Assembly (NCBI GenBank): GCA_040771865.1
Contig: JAXGZF010000005.1
Location: forward strand, 1 to 64,000
Length of the DNA stretch: 64,000 nt
Source: Desulfobacterales bacterium
GTDB lineage: Bacteria > Desulfobacterota > Desulfobacteria > Desulfobacterales > UBA2245
Reading direction: 5' to 3'
Positions 9,958 through 16,516 of this stretch are shown piece after piece. Within the stretch, counting starts at the first letter, position 1. Every line of letters starts with the position of its first letter. The position numbers and the translations under genes were made by a program. Under the pieces are notes generated by a model. That model had not been told where the DNA came from and searched no databases. It saw only the letters and a program-made list of their open reading frames with translations.

Positions 9958-11646
9958 ATGAGTCGTAGAATATTTTTTTTAATATCAATTATATCAATTA
10001 TAATTGTGACTTTTTTTGGAAATGTTTTTGCTTTAAATTACGCAATAGTCTACGACGAGCTGCATCGTGTCATCCGTCTGGATTATTCGGATGGTACAAA
10101 TGTTATCTACAACTACGACAATTTAGGCAATCGCACCTCCAAAATCGTCACGGTTGCCAACACTACCATCGATGCGCAATTCACCTCCGACCTGACCAAC
10201 GGGTTGGCGCCGTTGCAGGTCGCCTTCACCGACCAGTCAGTTGGCAATATCACATCCTGGGAGTGGAATTTCGGCGACGGTCAAACCAGTACGGAGCAGC
10301 ATCCTGTCCACAGCTATGCCGACCCTGGAACTTATACGGTCAGCCTTACCGTAAACGGGCCGGACGGCTCGGACGCCATCAGCATTCCAAGCTATATCAC
10401 GGTCGGCGACGGTCAGGGCAGCCCGGTACTTTCCGTTTCTCCATCGACTCGAAGCGTTTCCGCAGGCGCTGGATCCACAATCTTCAGCGTTGACAACACA
10501 GGCAGCGGAGTTATGAACTGGACCGCGGTTTCCAACGATTCGTGGCTGACGATTGCCGGCGGCAGCCCCGGCACGGACAGCGGCGTCATTACGGTCAGCT
10601 ACACAGCTAACGACGGCGCGGTGCGGACCGGATCAGCAACCGTGACAGCCCCGGGCGCTTCAAACAGTCCTCAGACCGTAACGGTCTCCCAGGCCCAGGG
10701 CGCCATCGATCTGGATCTGTCAGCAAACTCGCCGGCGGGCGGGGAGGTCTGGACCCTCGGCTCGACATACGCCATAAGCTGGACGGCATCTTCACCCTTC
10801 GGCATCAACGAGATTCGGTTATATTATCATTACAATGGGGAAACCCTTTCCATTGTGACGCTCGATGGTCAAGAAACGGAGTATGCCTGGACCATTCCCG
10901 GCAATGGCGCTTATATTTCGCAGGACGCTAGAATACGAATCGTTGCGTTCGACGGCAACGGCGGCCAGGCGGAAATTTACAGCCCCTCTTTCAGCGTTCA
11001 GGACGGCGAATCTCCGCCGCCCCCCTGGCAGGTTCCGGAAAAGTTGACAACATCCGATAACAGCCAGAACTACATTTCGCAATCGAATTCCCGGGGCGCC
11101 ATCGCAACCGACAGCCTCGGGAATGTCCACCTGGCGTATCTGTTCACCCAGGACGATCTCAGCGACATTGTATCGGGCGGCAGCGGAAACAGAATCATAA
11201 CCCAGAAGATTTTCTATCGGAAAAAGACCGGCGGCACATGGTCCGCTCCAACCGAGCTGTACAGCCTGACGTCGACAACGGACTCGAATTTGATTGGGCA
11301 TCGTCCCTTCAGCGAGCTTCGCATTGCCGTGGACGCACAGGACAACCCGCATATTGCCTGGGTGTTTGGAGGCGCCAATACCGCTTCATGCGATGGGTGG
11401 AATGGAAATGAAATTTATGCCGTTTCTTTTGATGGAACAGCCTGGCTTCCGCCGGTGAATGTTTCGAACAATGCCACGTATTCCTATTTTCTCGATATCG
11501 CGGCGGATACAGCCGGCAATGTGCATTTTGTGTGGATCGACGGCAGAACCTTTGAAGCGAATAGTTGCACTTCCTCCGGAACCCGTACGGTATACCACGG
11601 CATCCGTTTTGCAAATGGCGACTTTCCGACGCGGCGCCGGTCGTAG
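9958..11646 (+). CDS. N-terminal part of a frameshifted multidomain secreted protein: signal peptide, short YD-repeat module, PKD, BACON, Ig-like, start of a beta-propeller
   Basis: RBS gaggtg; signal ending VFA|LN; YDELHRVIRLDYSDGTNVIYNYDNLGNRTS; PKD 'SWEWNFGDGQTSTEQHPVHSYADPGTYTVSLTV'; BACON 'WTAVSNDSWLTI'; repeated IA.D..GN.H..W blades. Confidence 0.85.
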   Translation: MSRRIFFLISIISIIIVTFFGNVFALNYAIVYDELHRVIRLDYSDGTNVIYNYDNLGNRTSKIVTVANTTIDAQFTSDLTNGLAPLQVAFTDQSVGNITSWEWNFGDGQTSTEQHPVHSYADPGTYTVSLTVNGPDGSDAISIPSYITVGDGQGSPVLSVSPSTRSVSAGAGSTIFSVDNTGSGVMNWTAVSNDSWLTIAGGSPGTDSGVITVSYTANDGAVRTGSATVTAPGASNSPQTVTVSQAQGAIDLDLSANSPAGGEVWTLGSTYAISWTASSPFGINEIRLYYHYNGETLSIVTLDGQETEYAWTIPGNGAYISQDARIRIVAFDGNGGQAEIYSPSFSVQDGESPPPPWQVPEKLTTSDNSQNYISQSNSRGAIATDSLGNVHLAYLFTQDDLSDIVSGGSGNRIITQKIFYRKKTGGTWSAPTELYSLTSTTDSNLIGHRPFSELRIAVDAQDNPHIAWVFGGANTASCDGWNGNEIYAVSFDGTAWLPPVNVSNNATYSYFLDIAADTAGNVHFVWIDGRTFEANSCTSSGTRTVYHGIRFANGDFPTRRRS

Positions 11647-14327
11647 ATGCGCTTTACTATGGAAATTATCCTGCCCTTTGCGGCGGGCAGAACGGTAAAA
11701 TGTACCTTATATTTACCAATAGTTCTAAAGAGATGGAATATACTTCATGGGATCAAGGGCAATGGGCCGCGCCCGAGGTTATCAGACCCGTTGCCGGAGA
11801 CTATTACTATAAAGACATTGCGGCGGATAGCGCAGGCAATATTCATGTGGTTTTTGATGAAATGCAAGAGTCCCCTTTTTCCCGCGCCATCCAATACATG
11901 TCGTTTAATGGAACGGAGTGGTCCGAACCGGAAAAAGTCTCTTTTGGCGAAGACGGTTTCGATAAGATTCCGACTCTTTCGATCAGCGAGGCGGGGGCGC
12001 CGCAGGTTGTCTGGTACATGGGCATGACTTATACTGAGGACTCCCGGCTGCTCTATCGGCAGCGGCTGGACCAGGGATGGAGCGGCGCCGTTCAGTTGAA
12101 CACCCCGTCGAGCAATCCCGAGTATGCAGGGATAAATTCCGTTTCAGCGGCCATTTCAACAGGGAATGTTCTCCATCTTGTTTGGCAGGCTGTTTACAAC
12201 GGCTGCAGCGAGGTTTACTATGCCGCCGCGAGCATTTCTGCGTCTGATTTGGTAAATCCGGGCGCGATTGCCGTTCCCGCCACCGACCCTGACGGCAACT
12301 ATTCTGTGACCTGGGGGCCTTCTCCTACCGAAGGAGTCGCCTATGTTCTGGAAGAGGCAACGGACAGCGCGTTTACAGAAGGACTTCGAACAGCCTATAC
12401 TGGAACGGAGCCAGGCGCCGACATCAGCGGGCGTGAAATCGGAACCACATATTATTACCGGGTAAAAGCCGTCAAGCCGGGTTTCGCGGACAGCGGATGG
12501 ACCCTCGGCGCCAATGGTTGCGAGGTGAGTTTAGGCCCCGGCGGATCAAGCTGCGTTGTATCGGGTCGTGTGACGGTCAACAATCTTCCGGCCGGCTGGA
12601 CTTATGGCGAATCGACTATTTGTTTTTCCGATGGAGTTCACCCCGATGTCGGCGTTCAAACGGACGCGGACGGCAACTACAGCGCCGCCCTTTTCCCGTC
12701 CACGTACGAAGTTCGTTTGGGTAGCAATTGGTGGAATTATAATGGAGGCGAGTATATAGGTATATCTTATTCAGCGCATTCCAACTTCAGCGTATCGTCC
12801 GACGCCGTTTTGGACATTGTCGTTCCAACCGTGCTTCTGTCCGGCGTCGTTTACGACAGCAACGGATCGCCGGTGCCGGACACTCGGGTCGAATGTTACT
12901 ATGATGGGGGAAGCTCATATTGGACGACATCCGCCGACGGGTCATTCAAACTTCTTCTTCTGCCCGGCACCCATACGCTGACCGTTCGTCCTCCGGCCGC
13001 CTTGTATCCTCCATTTTATCTGCAAGATGTTTCATTTTTGGACAATACGGTGCGGAACATCATATTGGGCGTTCTACCCCTGTCGCCGGTACCCGATACC
13101 GGCCAGACCCAATGTTACGACGCGGCCGGAAATGTGATTCCCTGCCCCCAGCCGGGCGAGGCGTTTTACGGCCAGGACGGCAATTATACCATCAACCCGC
13201 CCTCCTATACCAAGCTGGATGCCAGCGGCAACGACCTGCCGGAATCGGCCGAATCCTGGGCCATGGTGCGCGACAACGTCACCGGGCTGGTCTGGGAGGT
13301 CAAGCAGAACAAGGACGAAATCCAAGATTATACCAACCCCCATGACGCGGACAATACCTACACATGGTACGACAGCAACCCGGCCACCAACGGCGGCTAT
13401 GCCGGCACTCCGGGGGACGGCACCGACACCGAAGATTTCATCGCCGCGCTGAATGCGGAAAACTTCGGCGGGTATTCTGACTGGCGCCTGCCGACGCCCC
13501 GCGAGCTTAGCAGCATCGAGAATTACGGCCGCTACAATCCAACCATCAATCGAGACTTTTTTCCGGACACGCAACCGTCCGACTACTGGTCGTCTACTAC
13601 CTTCGTCGCCAACTTCGTCCCCAACTTTACCGAGGTCGCCTGGTTCGTGGCTTTCAAATATAGCGGCAGCAGCGACATGCTTAAGTCGGACTCCTTCTTC
13701 GTTCGGGCGGTGCGCGGCGGACAGACTTCAAACCATTTTGTCGACAACGGCGACGGTACGGTAACGGACACGGCAACCGGCTTGATGTGGCAGCAGACCA
13801 CGGCGCCAGGAACATACACCTGGCAGGAGGCCCTTTCCTATTGCGAGGGGTTGAGTCTGGCCGGCCATACGGACTGGCGGTTGCCGACCATCAATGAACT
13901 GGGATCCATCGTGGATCTCGCAGAATTCATCCCGAGCATCAATCGGGACTTTTTTCCGGACACCCAACCGTCCTACTACTGGTCGTCTACTACCAATACC
14001 GACCCCTACAATACCGTCTGCGCCAGTAGCATGGACTTTTGTTATGGCCACGAGTACAACTGGCGCGGTAAGTCGAACTCCGACTTCGTTCGGGCGGTGC
14101 GCAGCGTAAAGTCCGGGTGGCTGGATGATCCGGTAATCGGCGATCTCAACGGCAACGGCGAGGTGAATCTGACCGATGCGATTCTGGCGTTGCAGGTTGT
14201 CGTGGGCGCGAATCCTTCCGCAATCCGTTCCGATTATGCTGCATCGGGCGCGGATGTGGACGGCGACGGCAAAATCGGCCTGGCCGAGGCGATCTATGCC
14301 CTGCAGAAAACAGCGGGCCTTCGGTGA
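11565..14327 (+). CDS. C-terminal part of the same gene (homologous reading from ~11626): propeller blades, FN3, carboxypeptidase-regulatory-like modules, 2x DUF1566 (Lcl C-type-lectin-like), dockerin-like domain
   Basis: Continues the IAADSAGNIHVVF blades; FN3 'YYYRVKAV'; DUF1566 'VRDNVTGLVWE...DWRLPT..EL...YWSST...FVRAVR' twice; dockerin 'GDLNGNGEVNLTDAILALQ...ADVDGDGKIGLAEAIYALQ'. It has no signal peptide of its own. Confidence 0.85.
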   Translation: MHFLRNPYGIPRHPFCKWRLSDAAPVVDALYYGNYPALCGGQNGKMYLIFTNSSKEMEYTSWDQGQWAAPEVIRPVAGDYYYKDIAADSAGNIHVVFDEMQESPFSRAIQYMSFNGTEWSEPEKVSFGEDGFDKIPTLSISEAGAPQVVWYMGMTYTEDSRLLYRQRLDQGWSGAVQLNTPSSNPEYAGINSVSAAISTGNVLHLVWQAVYNGCSEVYYAAASISASDLVNPGAIAVPATDPDGNYSVTWGPSPTEGVAYVLEEATDSAFTEGLRTAYTGTEPGADISGREIGTTYYYRVKAVKPGFADSGWTLGANGCEVSLGPGGSSCVVSGRVTVNNLPAGWTYGESTICFSDGVHPDVGVQTDADGNYSAALFPSTYEVRLGSNWWNYNGGEYIGISYSAHSNFSVSSDAVLDIVVPTVLLSGVVYDSNGSPVPDTRVECYYDGGSSYWTTSADGSFKLLLLPGTHTLTVRPPAALYPPFYLQDVSFLDNTVRNIILGVLPLSPVPDTGQTQCYDAAGNVIPCPQPGEAFYGQDGNYTINPPSYTKLDASGNDLPESAESWAMVRDNVTGLVWEVKQNKDEIQDYTNPHDADNTYTWYDSNPATNGGYAGTPGDGTDTEDFIAALNAENFGGYSDWRLPTPRELSSIENYGRYNPTINRDFFPDTQPSDYWSSTTFVANFVPNFTEVAWFVAFKYSGSSDMLKSDSFFVRAVRGGQTSNHFVDNGDGTVTDTATGLMWQQTTAPGTYTWQEALSYCEGLSLAGHTDWRLPTINELGSIVDLAEFIPSINRDFFPDTQPSYYWSSTTNTDPYNTVCASSMDFCYGHEYNWRGKSNSDFVRAVRSVKSGWLDDPVIGDLNGNGEVNLTDAILALQVVVGANPSAIRSDYAASGADVDGDGKIGLAEAIYALQKTAGLR
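13544..13715 (+). repeat. DUF1566 C-terminal repeat copy 1 (DGR variable-repeat-like)
   Basis: 13544-13601 matches 13937-13994 at 55/58 nt and 13682-13715 matches 14069-14102 at 31/34 nt; the middle is highly divergent and rich in NNC/NNT codons. Confidence 0.7.
13937..14102 (+). repeat. DUF1566 C-terminal repeat copy 2 (DGR variable-repeat-like)
   Basis: Same conserved flanks as copy 1 (tactggtcgtctactacc ... ttcgttcgggcggtgcgc). Confidence 0.7.
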
Positions 14328-14518: not shown

Positions 14519-15961
14519 ATGATGAGCGGGCTGAAGCGCTTTGCCTCGGGCGCGGTCGGAACCTTTCTGTGGGGTCTTGTCCTGGCGGCGGCGTTTTTCG
14601 GTCCGGCGCCGGCGCCGGCTTTCCAGATGGTCATCGATGATGAGAGTTTGACCATCGACGCCGAGCGGGTCCCGCTGTCTGAAATCCTGCAACGTCTGGC
14701 TGAATCCGGGGTGCGGATCCACATCGCTCCGGATATCGGGCACGAGGTCACGGCCCGCTTTGACCGCCGCCCTCTCGCCGCCGGCCTGGCCGCGATTTTG
14801 CGTCCGCTGAACCATTCGCTGATCTGGGAAACCATTCAGACCCCCCTCGGGCCTGTGCAGCGGTTGGTTGAAATCTCGGTGTTTCGCGCCGAAGACCCCC
14901 GGCCCGGTCCTGTTGTGTCCGCATCCCGGCCGGTTCTAAAGATCCGCACCGATTCGAAGACCGGGGCCTGCTACCTGGATCGCCAGGTGATGATCGCTTT
15001 TGACCGGACCATGGATATGGCCGGTTTCAAGGCGCTTCTGTTGCGCATCGGAGGGCGTTTGATCGACGTGGATCCGGTTCTGGGCGTTTACCGCATCGCC
15101 GTTTCCGAAGACGAAGACATTCCAGGGCTCTGCCGACGCCTGGTTCTGGAACCGGGGGTGGCGGCGGCTGAGCCGAATTATGCTTATCGAATGCAGCCCG
15201 CTATTCCCCGGCCGCTCATTGACGGTCCCGTAGCCGCTTTACCCTTTCAAAGGCCGTCTTTTTTGAATGATATTGCGCCGGTTGCCGTGCTGGATAGCGG
15301 CTGGCGCGCGGATCCGGCCTATTCGAACGCCGTGGCGGCCGCTTACGACGCCCTGGCCCCGAATGCGCCCATCGACGACGCGGTAGGACACGGAACCCAG
15401 ATGGCGCTGATCGCGTCCGGTTTAATCCATCCGCTGGGGACGGAGGAGAATAGGCCGGACAGCCTTGTTCCGGTTGTGGCCGTGCGGATTTTCGACGACA
15501 ACGGCTATACCGACGGCAGCGTCTTGATGCGGGGGATCGACTTCGCCTTAAAGTCCGGCGCCCGGGTGATCAGCCTGAGCTGGGGCTCCGAAACGCCCAG
15601 CGCATTCATGGAGCAGGCCGTAAATACGGTTCGAGATCGCGGCGCCGTGGTGGTGGCGTCGGCGGGCAACGAAAATACGGGAAAACCGGTCTATCCGGCG
15701 GCTTATGAAGCGGTTGTGGGCGTGGGCGCTTTGAATCCGGAAGGCGCCGTCTGGCCCCGATCCAACCAGGGCGATTTTGTAGACCTGCTGGCGCCGGGAT
15801 TCGCCTCGCTTCCGGTGGGCAGCCAGGGCGAGGCGCCGGGGGCCTATGCCGGAACCTCCATCGCCGCCGCCTACACCGCCTGCCGCCTGGCTCTCGAACT
15901 CTCTCGAAATCCCGACGCATTGGCCGCCGAGGTTCTGGAATCCCAACTGAAATCCCGTTAG
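14519..15961 (+). CDS. S8 subtilisin-like serine peptidase with a signal peptide, an N-terminal STN/secretin-N0-like domain and a propeptide-like domain
   Basis: Catalytic motifs VAVLDSG (Asp), GHGTQMA (His), SAGNE (oxyanion Asn) and GTSIAAA (Ser). N-terminal 'LTIDAERVPLSEILQRLA...VTARFDRRPLAAGLAAIL' is STN-like. Confidence 0.88.
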   Translation: MMSGLKRFASGAVGTFLWGLVLAAAFFGPAPAPAFQMVIDDESLTIDAERVPLSEILQRLAESGVRIHIAPDIGHEVTARFDRRPLAAGLAAILRPLNHSLIWETIQTPLGPVQRLVEISVFRAEDPRPGPVVSASRPVLKIRTDSKTGACYLDRQVMIAFDRTMDMAGFKALLLRIGGRLIDVDPVLGVYRIAVSEDEDIPGLCRRLVLEPGVAAAEPNYAYRMQPAIPRPLIDGPVAALPFQRPSFLNDIAPVAVLDSGWRADPAYSNAVAAAYDALAPNAPIDDAVGHGTQMALIASGLIHPLGTEENRPDSLVPVVAVRIFDDNGYTDGSVLMRGIDFALKSGARVISLSWGSETPSAFMEQAVNTVRDRGAVVVASAGNENTGKPVYPAAYEAVVGVGALNPEGAVWPRSNQGDFVDLLAPGFASLPVGSQGEAPGAYAGTSIAAAYTACRLALELSRNPDALAAEVLESQLKSR

Positions 15962-16033: not shown

Positions 16034-16516
16034 TCAGTGCGTGATCCTGATCGGCGGCAGCTTTACTGTTGCCTTCAATTCCTTGAGCGCATCGCTCATC
16101 AACTGGATTTCATGAATCTGAATTTGCGTCCGGTCTGCCTGGGTTTTTTGGACCACCTCGAATGTCAGGGTGAAGATGGGGAATTTTTCTCCCTTGATTC
16201 CGGCGGCGCCGGCCATGACCAGGATGAGTCGCCCGGGTTTTTTGTCGTTGACGATGTGCATCAGGGGTGCCGTGTGCGAGGTCTTGTTCCCGCCTTTGTA
16301 TTGTAAAACCTTTGGATCGTAGGTCATCGCCAGCTTGACGCCGGCCAGGTTGTCCGCCTGATCGAGCGTCAGAGGAACGGTGATCGTCTCGCCGGGTTTG
16401 GCCTGAATGTCCGGAATGGAAAGCTCGACGCCCCATGCCGTGGACAGGGACGAAAGAAAAAAGAGTCCGAAGATCAGGAATCCGAACAACCTCGCCGCCG
16501 TTTGTATCATCGCCAA
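16034..16516 (-). CDS. Secreted single-domain cohesin-like protein
   Basis: RBS aaggag; signal ending AWG|VE; 'LSIPDIQAKPGETITVPLTLDQADNLAGVKLAMTYDPKVLQY...PGRLILVMAGAAGIKG...IFTLTFEV' follows the cohesin pattern. Confidence 0.8.
   Translation of the reverse strand: MAMIQTAARLFGFLIFGLFFLSSLSTAWGVELSIPDIQAKPGETITVPLTLDQADNLAGVKLAMTYDPKVLQYKGGNKTSHTAPLMHIVNDKKPGRLILVMAGAAGIKGEKFPIFTLTFEVVQKTQADRTQIQIHEIQLMSDALKELKATVKLPPIRITH

What the first reader, a model, noticed from the sequence alone, without database searches (positions are those of the whole stretch)
13544..14102. Two DGR-like variable repeats in tandem DUF1566 domains, with no template repeat or RT in the window
Seen: the two DUF1566 C-termini share near-identical nucleotide flanks (55/58 nt and 31/34 nt) around hypervariable middles. 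Between YWSSTT and VRAVR, 26 of 33 codons (copy 1) and 26 of 31 (copy 2) end in C/T. The amino-acid-changing flank differences (gac/tac, gac/aac, ttc/gac) all fall at positions 1-2 of NNC codons. Copy 1 also has a 12-nt near-duplication (ttcgtcgccaac/ttcgtccccaac). Established: diversity-generating retroelements mutate the adenines of AAC-rich templates to give NNY codons, and CLec-fold YWSST...VR.VR segments are typical targets. Inference: two internal (not C-terminal) VRs in one gene, diversified in trans by a remote DGR or left as fossils. The indels suggest further ageing.
Basis: partly seen in the sequence, partly recalled or inferred. Interest (0 to 1): 0.8.

Follow-up and report, generated by a model that had tools for sequence, protein, structure and literature searches.

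The report
Orphan DGR-type lectin tips, tandem pair
Two neighbouring lectin-like domains of one surface-protein gene carry the marks of a mutagenic reverse-transcriptase system (a DGR), but that system is missing from this genome, so they look like frozen relics of a known mechanism.

Summary
Gene 11565..14327 (+) has two tandem Lcl_C/DUF1566 C-type-lectin-fold domains. Their C-terminal parts share 55/58 and 31/34 identical bases around unalike middles.

The flank identity is not chance. Identical residues use the same codon in 24 of 26 flank positions, against 6 of 22 in the rest of the domain (p=3.6e-6).

The middles differ most at codon positions 1-2 (16 and 14 of 30 aligned codons) and least at position 3 (8 of 30). 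The rest of the domain shows the reverse, 30, 28 and 42 of 67. That inverted pattern is what DGR mutagenesis leaves.

Relatives in the same order carry true DGRs on this exact segment, and tandem modules with clean multi-VR patterns.

The genome (98.3% complete) has no DGR reverse transcriptase, related Avd or template. The one same-genus genome has neither Lcl_C nor any RT. The two segments also differ by indels.

Best reading: orphaned, probably frozen DGR variable regions. No template was found, so adenine specificity is untested. NNY richness is typical of this segment family-wide and adds nothing.

This scan has reported orphan DUF1566 variable regions on other DNA before. Ordinary relic; low interest.

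The parts
9958..11646 (+). Upstream ORF (562 aa) with a signal-peptide-like N-terminus and RHS-repeat, PKD and BACON domains. Probably the N-terminal part of the same gene, cut off by a frameshift.
   Evidence: Pfam hits. The repeat motif DIAAD.AGN.H.V continues across the ORF boundary in another frame.
11565..14327 (+). ORF carrying the finding (920 aa from TTG; the database gene call is 875 aa, which implies a start at 11700). Order: CarboxypepD_reg-like domain, two Lcl_C domains, dockerin-like tail.
   Evidence: P0002.
13263..13715 (+). Lcl_C/DUF1566 domain 1, the long form with an insertion.
   Evidence: 106.2 bits, profile positions 2-117; alignment.
13755..14102 (+). Lcl_C/DUF1566 domain 2. 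The model has a C-type-lectin-like fold.
   Evidence: 118.3 bits. AlphaFold model pLDDT 84.6 for the best of five models, the others 51-58. Best PDB match 8q4e_A, Legionella Lcl C-terminal domain, E 1e-4, TM 0.64.
13544..13601 (+). 5' flank of VR-like segment 1 (INRDFFPDTQPSDYWSSTT).
   Evidence: 55/58 identical to 13937-13994.
13602..13700 (+). Hypervariable middle of segment 1 (33 codons, 26 NNY). Includes the 12-nt near-duplication at 13602-13625.
13701..13719 (+). End of the 3' flank of segment 1 (VRAVR plus 4 nt). The whole 3' flank is 13682-13719 and overlaps the last codons of the middle.
   Evidence: The whole flank 13682-13719 matches 14069-14106 at 34/38.
13937..13994 (+). 5' flank of VR-like segment 2.
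13995..14087 (+). Hypervariable middle of segment 2 (31 codons, 26 NNY). It lacks the near-invariant Trp of the family (AS in place of AW).
14088..14106 (+). End of the 3' flank of segment 2 (VRAVR plus 4 nt). It is followed by RSVK, where segment 1 and the relatives' VRs have RGGQ.
14139..14276 (+). Dockerin-like tail, below Pfam's cut-off.
   Evidence: 19.1 bits against a cut-off of 22.9.
16034..16516 (-). Neighbouring cohesin-domain protein, a possible anchor for the dockerin-like tail.
   Evidence: 49.8 bits against a cut-off of 24.1.

Best explanation
The two segments (13544-13719 and 13937-14106) are the ligand-binding tips of two tandem C-type-lectin-fold (Lcl_C/DUF1566) domains in a secreted or surface-type protein.

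They were most likely once written by a diversity-generating retroelement. In that mechanism, cDNA copied from one template repeat overwrites a variable region and randomises the positions that are adenines in the template. This leaves identical flanks around middles that differ at codon positions 1-2.

The element (RT, Avd, template) is not in this genome. Either it was lost, or the gene arrived without it. The two tips are now fixed. They have begun ordinary decay: in-frame indels, some third-position changes, loss of a conserved Trp in tip 2, and a changed RGGQ tail in tip 2.

Shown here: the domain identity and fold; flank homogenisation; the inverted codon-position pattern; absence of DGR parts from the assembly; true DGRs on the same segment in same-order relatives.

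Inferred: that a DGR, rather than another process, produced the pattern here, and that it is no longer acting.
For: (a) Internal three-tier pattern between the two domains.
- Rest of domain: 67 aligned codons, differences 30/28/42 at codon positions 1/2/3. This is the normal pattern of old divergence.
- Flanks: 25 codons, 1/1/2.
- Middle: 30 codons, 16/14/8.
- Position 3 in the middle against the rest of the domain: Fisher p=0.0018.

(b) Only 3% of 2941 cross-locus pairs of homologous segments have position-3 divergence as low as the window's 0.27 (null mean 0.57, sd 0.15). Divergence at positions 1-2 (0.50) equals the null (0.52).

(c) Codon identity in the flanks: 24/26 against 6/22 elsewhere, p=3.6e-6.

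(d) Positive controls in the same order.
- G024:C382 has target-Avd-TR-RT. VR and TR differ at 22 sites, 19 of them at template adenines.
- G037 has one TR with two VRs.
- In both, the VR spans YWSS...VR.VR of Lcl_C.

(e) Tandem modules homologous to the window's show clean multi-VR patterns.
- G010:C617, the closest nucleotide relative: differences 10/12/1 over 28 codons, no gaps.
- Four copies in the giant ORF of L040: 0 of 28 position-3 differences in all 6 pairs.

(f) No DGR parts in G000 (98.29% complete).
- One RVT_1 hit, which is a group II intron RT: GIIM domain, with Rfam intron domains on both sides.
- tblastn with the relatives' DGR RTs and Avds, and blastn with their TRs, found nothing else.
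- No third copy of either segment by blastn at word size 7.

(g) Contigs of public runs cover parts of the segments with 0 differences: X2 13447-13611 and 13623-13849; X6 (another study) 13649-13843; X1 13832-14184.
Against: - No template exists to test adenine specificity, which is the defining feature.
- The two middles differ in length (33 and 31 codons, 4 unaligned codons). They also differ at 8 of 30 third positions, against 2 of 25 in the flanks. One template cannot write that, so later decay or two templates must be assumed.
- The 5' flank holds 13 adenines, and only one of them differs between the copies. That part was therefore either not mutagenised or strongly selected.
- NNY richness is no higher than in homologous segments generally.
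- No stable hairpin follows either segment (z +0.63 and +0.67). The control was mixed: z -1.9 in G024 and +1.3 in G037.
- None of the 78 metagenome loci with homologous modules has a DGR-type RT within the DNA held. G010 has no assembled DGR RT either. The 'clean' relatives therefore also lack a demonstrated template.
- The genome is a 13-contig assembly. Marker-gene completeness says little about mobile elements.
- The contig evidence for stasis is thin: low depth, contigs drop rare variants, and X1 may be the source sample.
Confidence: 0.55

Rival explanations
1. No DGR was ever involved. Gene conversion between the two tandem domains (concerted evolution) homogenised their C-terminal parts, and diversifying selection on the ligand-binding loops then drove them apart.
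For: - The flanks are homogenised. Other tandem pairs show partial intragenic nucleotide similarity, for example L053 at 89% over 92 nt in a different part of the domain.
- The indels and third-position differences in the middles are expected under ordinary evolution.
- No template or RT was found.
Against: - Divergence at positions 1-2 is saturated (50%), while flank divergence is about 5% and position-3 divergence in the middle is 27%. That needs an extreme dN/dS over about 30 codons.
- A single conversion tract would also cover the middle.
- The same segment is a demonstrated DGR target in same-order relatives.
Confidence: 0.22
2. The two tips are still being rewritten in trans by a DGR that is missing from this assembly, for example on a phage, a plasmid or an unbinned contig.
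For: - Remote targets rewritten in trans are documented (PMC10907252, passages read).
- DGR loci assemble badly; G010's VR copies lie on contigs of 1.4 to 21 kb.
- Public contigs break near the segment borders, and other contigs share the flanks but have other middles.
Against: - Indels between the two segments rule out a single current template.
- Tip 2 has RSVK where the VRs of active relatives have RGGQ.
- The contigs that share the flanks also differ upstream of them. The 190-nt record matches only 13872-13994, at 94%, so it comes from another gene.
- Where covered, the window's own version is unchanged in runs of two studies.
- Two flank patterns gave 0 matches in viral contigs and in genome contigs.
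Confidence: 0.08
3. Nothing special: the flanks encode the most conserved motifs of the fold, and codon bias makes them look alike.
For: - The 24-nt core that encodes SYYWSSTT is 20 or more of 24 identical in 21 of 86 homologous segments from other organisms.
- The family prefers TGG TCG TCT ACT ACC for WSSTT.
- 3' flank identity of 24/27 or more occurs in 4 of 32 other pairs.
Against: - 5' flank identity of 45/48 is reached by 0 of 32 pairs from other loci and by 0 of 12 tandem pairs in relatives.
- The synonymous-codon test gives p=3.6e-6.
- This reading does not explain the low position-3 divergence of the middles.
Confidence: 0.05

Closest known systems
DGR target category 'd' / CLec2 variable regions overlapping DUF1566, DUF823 or Fib_succ_major, exemplified by the Legionella DGR and LdtA (Wu et al. 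2018, PMC5758913; passages read)
   Same: Same Pfam domain and fold. The variable segment is the C-terminal YWSS...VR.VR part. The codons are NNY-rich. The proteins are surface or adhesin-type, with appended domains.
   Different: There is no RT, Avd or template here. The segments are internal, followed by a dockerin-like tail. There are two per gene, and they differ in length.
DGRs with several VRs in one target ORF, remote targets and incomplete DGR loci (Yan et al. 2019, PMC6642488: 31 DGRs with multiple VRs overlapping one ORF; Thiohalocapsa PB-PSB1, PMC10907252; passages read)
   Same: Two variable-region-like segments in one gene. The locus lacks its own RT and TR.
   Different: In those cases a template elsewhere in the genome matches the VRs at all non-adenine sites. 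Here no template was found anywhere.
DGR cassettes found here in same-order genomes: G024:C382 (L018) and G037:C3 (L019, L020)
   Same: The VR lies on the same Lcl_C segment, with the same scaffold (WSS.T ... AW.V.F..G ... KS...Y VRAVRGGQ).
   Different: Those have one C-terminal VR per small target gene, a 28-codon middle, and Avd-TR-RT alongside, with 19 of 22 mismatches at template adenines.
Tandem double-Lcl_C modules with a clean multi-VR pattern: G010:C617 (L021) and the giant ORF of L040
   Same: Same two-domain module. The long d1 is 80% identical in nucleotides to the window's over 240 nt in G010. Both tips are VR-like.
   Different: Their copies have equal length and 0-1 third-position differences in 28 codons. 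The window has 8 in 30, plus indels.
Legionella pneumophila Lcl C-terminal domain, PDB 8q4e
   Same: Best structural match to the domain 2 model (E 1e-4, TM 0.64, 25% identity).
   Different: No sequence-level hit to any PDB chain at E<=0.01. I ran no check on whether Lcl itself is a DGR target.

Membership tests
DGR variable region (target of a diversity-generating retroelement) | A cognate template repeat that matches the VR except at template adenines | tested here: not met
   No third copy in G000 by blastn at word size 7. The relatives' TRs give no hit. Flank patterns gave 0 matches in viral contigs and genome contigs.
DGR variable region (target of a diversity-generating retroelement) | A DGR-type reverse transcriptase in the genome | tested here: not met
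   One RVT_1 match in G000, which is a group II intron RT (GIIM domain, intron RNA domains). tblastn with two DGR RTs hits only that gene. G001, same genus, has no RVT_1 match.
DGR variable region (target of a diversity-generating retroelement) | An accessory Avd gene with the cassette | tested here: not met
   One PF05635 ORF at C8:189399-189695 stands alone between unrelated ORFs, with no RT in the contig end examined (neighbour identities read from the translations, not scanned). The relatives' DGR Avds give no significant hit.
DGR variable region (target of a diversity-generating retroelement) | The VR lies on the variable face of a C-type-lectin fold | tested here: met
   Lcl_C hits. The model matches 8q4e and C-type-lectin-like domains. 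The segment is homologous to the VRs of G024 and G037.
DGR variable region (target of a diversity-generating retroelement) | VR copies of one template have equal length and differ only at sites set by the template, mostly codon positions 1-2 | tested here: inconclusive
   Differences 16/14/8 in 30 aligned codons, plus 4 unaligned codons. The bias goes the right way (p about 0.03 against the cross-locus null, 0.0018 against the rest of the domain). Indels and third-position changes are present.
DGR variable region (target of a diversity-generating retroelement) | GC-rich IMH and a hairpin at the 3' end of the VR | tested here: inconclusive
   No fold better than shuffles after either segment (z +0.63, +0.67). 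The controls disagree: G024 z -1.9, G037 z +1.3.
DGR variable region (target of a diversity-generating retroelement) | Within-population hypervariation confined to the VR | tested here: inconclusive
   Only Logan contigs were available. The window's version recurs unchanged where covered. Contigs cannot show rare variants.
Lcl_C / DUF1566 (PF07603) | Score above Pfam's gathering cut-off | tested here: met
   212.4 bits against 34.9, two stretches.
Dockerin-cohesin pair | Dockerin and cohesin domains above their cut-offs | tested here: inconclusive
   Dockerin_1 scores 19.1 bits, below the cut-off of 22.9. The cohesin in the neighbour scores 49.8 against 24.1. Binding was not tested.

The most novel reading that the evidence does not exclude
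The near-identical flanks may be kept on purpose as landing sites. Both lectin tips of this host surface protein could then be rewritten now and then by a DGR that visits on a phage or other mobile element and is not part of the host genome. Double-Lcl_C modules, which are very common in Desulfobacterales-type proteins (4938 homologues at E<=1e-20 among 7999 candidates scored), would then be a large class of targets served in trans.
Probability: 0.06. Interest if true: 0.7.

Novelty: new member of a known kind. Interest (0 to 1): 0.3.

Why it matters
If the reading is right, this is one more case where the product of a DGR outlives the element. Two binding tips of one adhesin-like protein were randomised and then fixed.

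That helps annotation: DUF1566 tips with identical flanks and inverted codon-position divergence can be flagged as DGR-written even without an RT. It also bears on estimates of how often DGRs are lost.

It does not change what is known about DGRs. Multi-VR targets, internal VRs, remote targets and incomplete loci are all in print (PMC6642488, PMC5758913, PMC10907252). This scan has already reported orphan DUF1566 variable regions in other genomes.

Tried and rejected
- NNY richness as evidence: rejected. It is explained by amino-acid composition and is typical of the segment family-wide.
- Hairpin or IMH test: no signal, and the controls were inconsistent.
- Sequence search of the PDB with the two-domain region: 0 hits at E<=0.01.
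- Pattern scans for a template or a twin of the flanks: 0 matches in viral contigs (2 scans) and genome contigs (2 scans).
- A DGR RT next to homologous modules: tblastn with two DGR RTs against all loci then held hit only the two control genomes' loci and the group II intron RT. None of the 78 metagenome loci was hit. Many of those loci are short.
- G010's RT hits: 6 contigs were fetched. All are only 23-36% identical to DGR RTs, like the group II intron RT, and hold no template.
- The remainder of L040's contig could not be reached.
- Coverage dips over the two middles, and contig breaks at 13994, 14001 and 13605/13690. These are not usable as evidence of hypervariation. Depths sum homologous contigs of other organisms, and the 190-nt record sharing 13872-13994 also differs upstream.
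- FGE-sulfatase-type DGR targets in the genome: none.
- A close orthologue to compare tips across strains: none. The best other protein is 52-63% identical among 5.8 billion sequences, and the same-genus genome lacks the gene.
- P0001 as a test of the frameshift: not colinear, so uninformative.
- No complex prediction was run.
Full report
**What is there.** ORF 11565..14327 (+) encodes 920 aa from the first TTG. The database gene call, P0002, is 875 aa. Pfam finds a CarboxypepD_reg-like domain, two Lcl_C/DUF1566 domains (212.4 bits, cut-off 34.9) and a sub-threshold dockerin. The genome-wide search places the two Lcl_C domains at 13263-13715 and 13755-14102.

A model of domain 2 has pLDDT 84.6 for the best of five models; the other four score 51-58. 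Its best PDB match is the Legionella Lcl C-terminal domain, 8q4e_A (E 1e-4, TM 0.64), followed by C-type-lectin-like domains. Downstream lie an S8 peptidase (14519..15961) and, on the other strand, a cohesin-domain protein (16034..16516). The protein therefore looks like a secreted or surface-anchored binding protein.

**Checking the observation.**
- Flanks 55/58 and 31/34; BLAST reports the second as 34/38.
- 26/33 and 26/31 NNY codons.
- The three amino-acid-changing flank differences lie at positions 1-2 of NNC codons.
- The 12-nt near-duplication is at 13602-13625.

The flank identity is not chance:
- At residues identical between the two domains, the same codon is used in 24 of 26 flank positions but in 6 of 22 positions in the rest of the domain (p=3.6e-6).
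- Of 12 tandem Lcl_C pairs from five same-order genomes, none had a stretch of 30 nt or more at 90% or more.
- One search counted 69 unique within-locus pairs of such segments: 36 inside one giant ORF (L040), 32 from 26 other loci, and the window's own. The window's 45/48 in the 5' flank is matched by 0 of the 32 (maximum 41) and by 2 of the 36 in L040.

The NNY count is not informative on its own:
- Composition predicts about 22 of 33 and 22.5 of 31.
- Other parts of the gene reach 25 or more of 32, and 3% of its 32-codon windows reach 26.
- 86 unique homologous segments average 74% +/- 10%.

**The pattern inside the segments.** I aligned the two domains codon by codon and counted differences at codon positions 1, 2 and 3.

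| Region | Aligned codons | Differences at positions 1/2/3 |
|---|---|---|
| Rest of domain | 67 | 30/28/42 |
| Flanks | 25 | 1/1/2 |
| Middles | 30 | 16/14/8 |

The rest of the domain shows the normal signature of an old duplication under purifying selection, with third positions most diverged. The middles show the reverse. Third-position divergence in the middles is lower than in the rest of the domain (p=0.0018).

Against a null of 2941 cross-locus pairs of homologous segments (position-3 divergence 0.57 +/- 0.15), only 3% are as low as the window's 0.27. Divergence at positions 1-2 (0.50) equals the null of 0.52. That null pool includes a few duplicated loci and the nine L040 segments.

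So the whole C-terminal stretch of about 58 codons shares a more recent origin than the domains themselves. Within it, first and second codon positions of the middle have been randomised to saturation. Ordinary substitution does not do this. DGR mutagenesis of AAC-type template codons does.

**Controls from relatives.** Same-order genomes carry real DGRs on exactly this segment.
- G024:C382 has target, Avd, TR and RT in a row. VR and TR differ at 22 sites, 19 of them at template adenines.
- G037 has one TR with two VRs, and several cassette copies.

The two-domain module of the window is widespread. 4938 proteins reached E<=1e-20 among the 7999 candidates scored, and those with names come from Desulfobacterales-type bacteria. 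In some homologues both tips look freshly DGR-written.
- G010:C617 is the closest nucleotide relative, 80% over 240 nt of domain 1. Its tips differ by 10/12/1 over 28 codons with no gaps. Two more copies lie on G010:C682, next to a truncated Avd-like ORF.
- In the metagenome locus L040, one open frame of more than 3700 aa holds nine such segments. Four of them have 0 of 28 third-position differences in all six pairs.

Neither of these has a demonstrated template or DGR RT in the DNA available. They are pattern controls, not proven DGR targets. Other tandem pairs sit at the window's level of decay, for example L034 at 15/14/8 and G016:C98 at 12/11/7. G016 has no RVT_1 match at all.

**What is missing here.** G000 is 2.98 Mb in 13 contigs and 98.29% complete.
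- It has a single RVT_1 match. That protein has a GIIM maturase domain and is flanked by Rfam group II intron domains.
- tblastn with the two relatives' DGR RTs and Avds, and blastn with their TRs, add nothing.
- The one PF05635 (Avd-like) ORF stands alone, with no RT in the contig end examined.
- No third copy of either segment exists in the genome.
- Two flank patterns gave no match in the viral or genome collections.
- The only same-genus genome, G001 (99% complete), has no Lcl_C and no RVT_1 match.
- No protein closer than 52-63% identity exists in the 5.8-billion-sequence collection.

The gene may therefore have arrived without its DGR, or the DGR may have been lost. I cannot tell which.

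**Signs of ageing.**
- The middles are 33 and 31 codons, against 28 in the relatives' templates and VRs. The difference includes the 12-nt duplication and further single-codon indels.
- Tip 2 has Ser where the family has a near-invariant Trp.
- Tip 2 ends in RSVK, not RGGQ.
- The ORF appears cut off from its signal-peptide-bearing N-terminal part (9958..11646) by a frameshift near 11620, because the same repeat motif continues across the boundary in another frame. I could not tell a real frameshift from an assembly error.
- A second, heavily degraded tandem Lcl_C module lies at C3:~501,400-502,150.

**Population data.** Only Logan contigs were available.
- Pieces identical to the window cover 13447-13611 and 13623-13849 (X2), 13649-13843 (X6, another study) and 13832-14184 (X1, possibly the source sample).
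- Other contigs share the flanks and then diverge. The 190-nt record that matches 13872-13994 at 94% is also unlike the window upstream, so it belongs to another gene.
- This is weak evidence for stasis and no evidence for hypervariation.

**Verdict.** The best reading (0.55) is a pair of orphaned, probably frozen DGR-type variable regions.

The main rival (0.22) is intragenic conversion plus diversifying selection without any DGR. Present rewriting in trans (0.08) is disfavoured by the indels. Codon bias alone (0.05) is disfavoured by the controls.

The defining DGR test, mismatches at template adenines, could not be run because no template was found. I therefore do not file the segments as demonstrated DGR VRs, only as working like them.

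**What is known.** The following are in print; I read passages only:
- DUF1566 as a DGR target class (PMC5758913).
- Several VRs in one ORF (PMC6642488).
- Internal VRs (PMC5758913).
- Remote targets and incomplete loci (PMC10907252).

I did not see those papers' supplements. For PMC8144416 I read only two passages, on active and inactive DGRs. I did not search for, and make no claim about, whether decayed tandem VR pairs are specifically described.

The scan's own notes list at least seven earlier 'orphan DGR VR in DUF1566' findings on other DNA. I did not test them, and they are not evidence here.

Noticed in passing
window 11560-11650: ORF 9958..11646 (signal peptide, PKD, BACON) and ORF 11565..14327 overlap by 82 nt in different frames. 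The repeat motif DIAAD.AGN.H.V continues across the boundary. This is probably one gene of about 1450 aa split by a 1-nt frameshift, either a real pseudogene or an assembly error.
   Followed up: partly
G000 C3:~501,400-502,150 (L005 6440-7150): A heavily degraded, frame-broken copy of a tandem Lcl_C module. One 57-nt stretch is 88% identical to window domain 1, and it contains TGGTCGTCTACTACCAAT. It is not next to an RT. Contigs of runs X2 and X5 carry an upstream sequence like this locus joined to window-like module sequence, which suggests an intact version exists in related strains.
   Followed up: partly
L040 7719-18836 (metagenome contig): One open frame of more than 3700 aa holds nine Lcl_C C-terminal segments. 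Four of them (8294, 8678, 10214, 10598) share every scaffold base and differ only at codon positions 1-2. That is a multi-VR pattern in a giant protein, with no RT in the 18.8 kb held.
   Followed up: partly
G010:C617:19630-20454 and G010:C682 (L021, L112): Four VR-like copies share flanks: two in a tandem module, and two on a 1.4-kb contig beside a truncated Avd-like ORF (MARYEHLPLYKK...). No DGR-type RT or template is assembled in that genome.
   Followed up: partly
97 Lcl_C segments from 55 loci: A family-wide codon preference for W-S-S-T-T as TGG TCG TCT ACT ACC: 48, 47, 37 and 32 of 95 at the four S/T positions. Serine is never AGY at the first two S positions among the common codons. The 24-nt core is 20 or more of 24 identical to the window's in 21 of 86 unique segments from other organisms.
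   Followed up: no
window 14139-14276 and 16034-16516 (-): A dockerin-like tail on the Lcl_C protein and a small cohesin-domain protein 1.7 kb away, with an S8 subtilase between them. This could be a cohesin-dockerin anchoring pair in what is probably a Desulfobacterales genome.
   Followed up: no
G000 C4:~405,000-406,850 (L004 9016-10832): A complete-looking group II intron: the Rfam D1-D4 domain, an RT-maturase ORF (410 aa, RVT_1 plus GIIM), and the D5-D6 domain.
   Followed up: yes
L019 and L020 (G037:C3): Three near-identical DGR cassettes (target, Avd, TR, RT). Two lie about 4 kb apart at 89-92% identity, each beside the same 330-350-aa ORF on the other strand. This suggests the whole cassette was duplicated or mobilised.
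   Followed up: no
window 14022-14030 (domain 2): Domain 2 has Ala-Ser where 90% or more of the 18 aligned domains have Ala-Trp. Its tail reads VRAVRSVK where the usual form is VRAVRGGQ.
   Followed up: no
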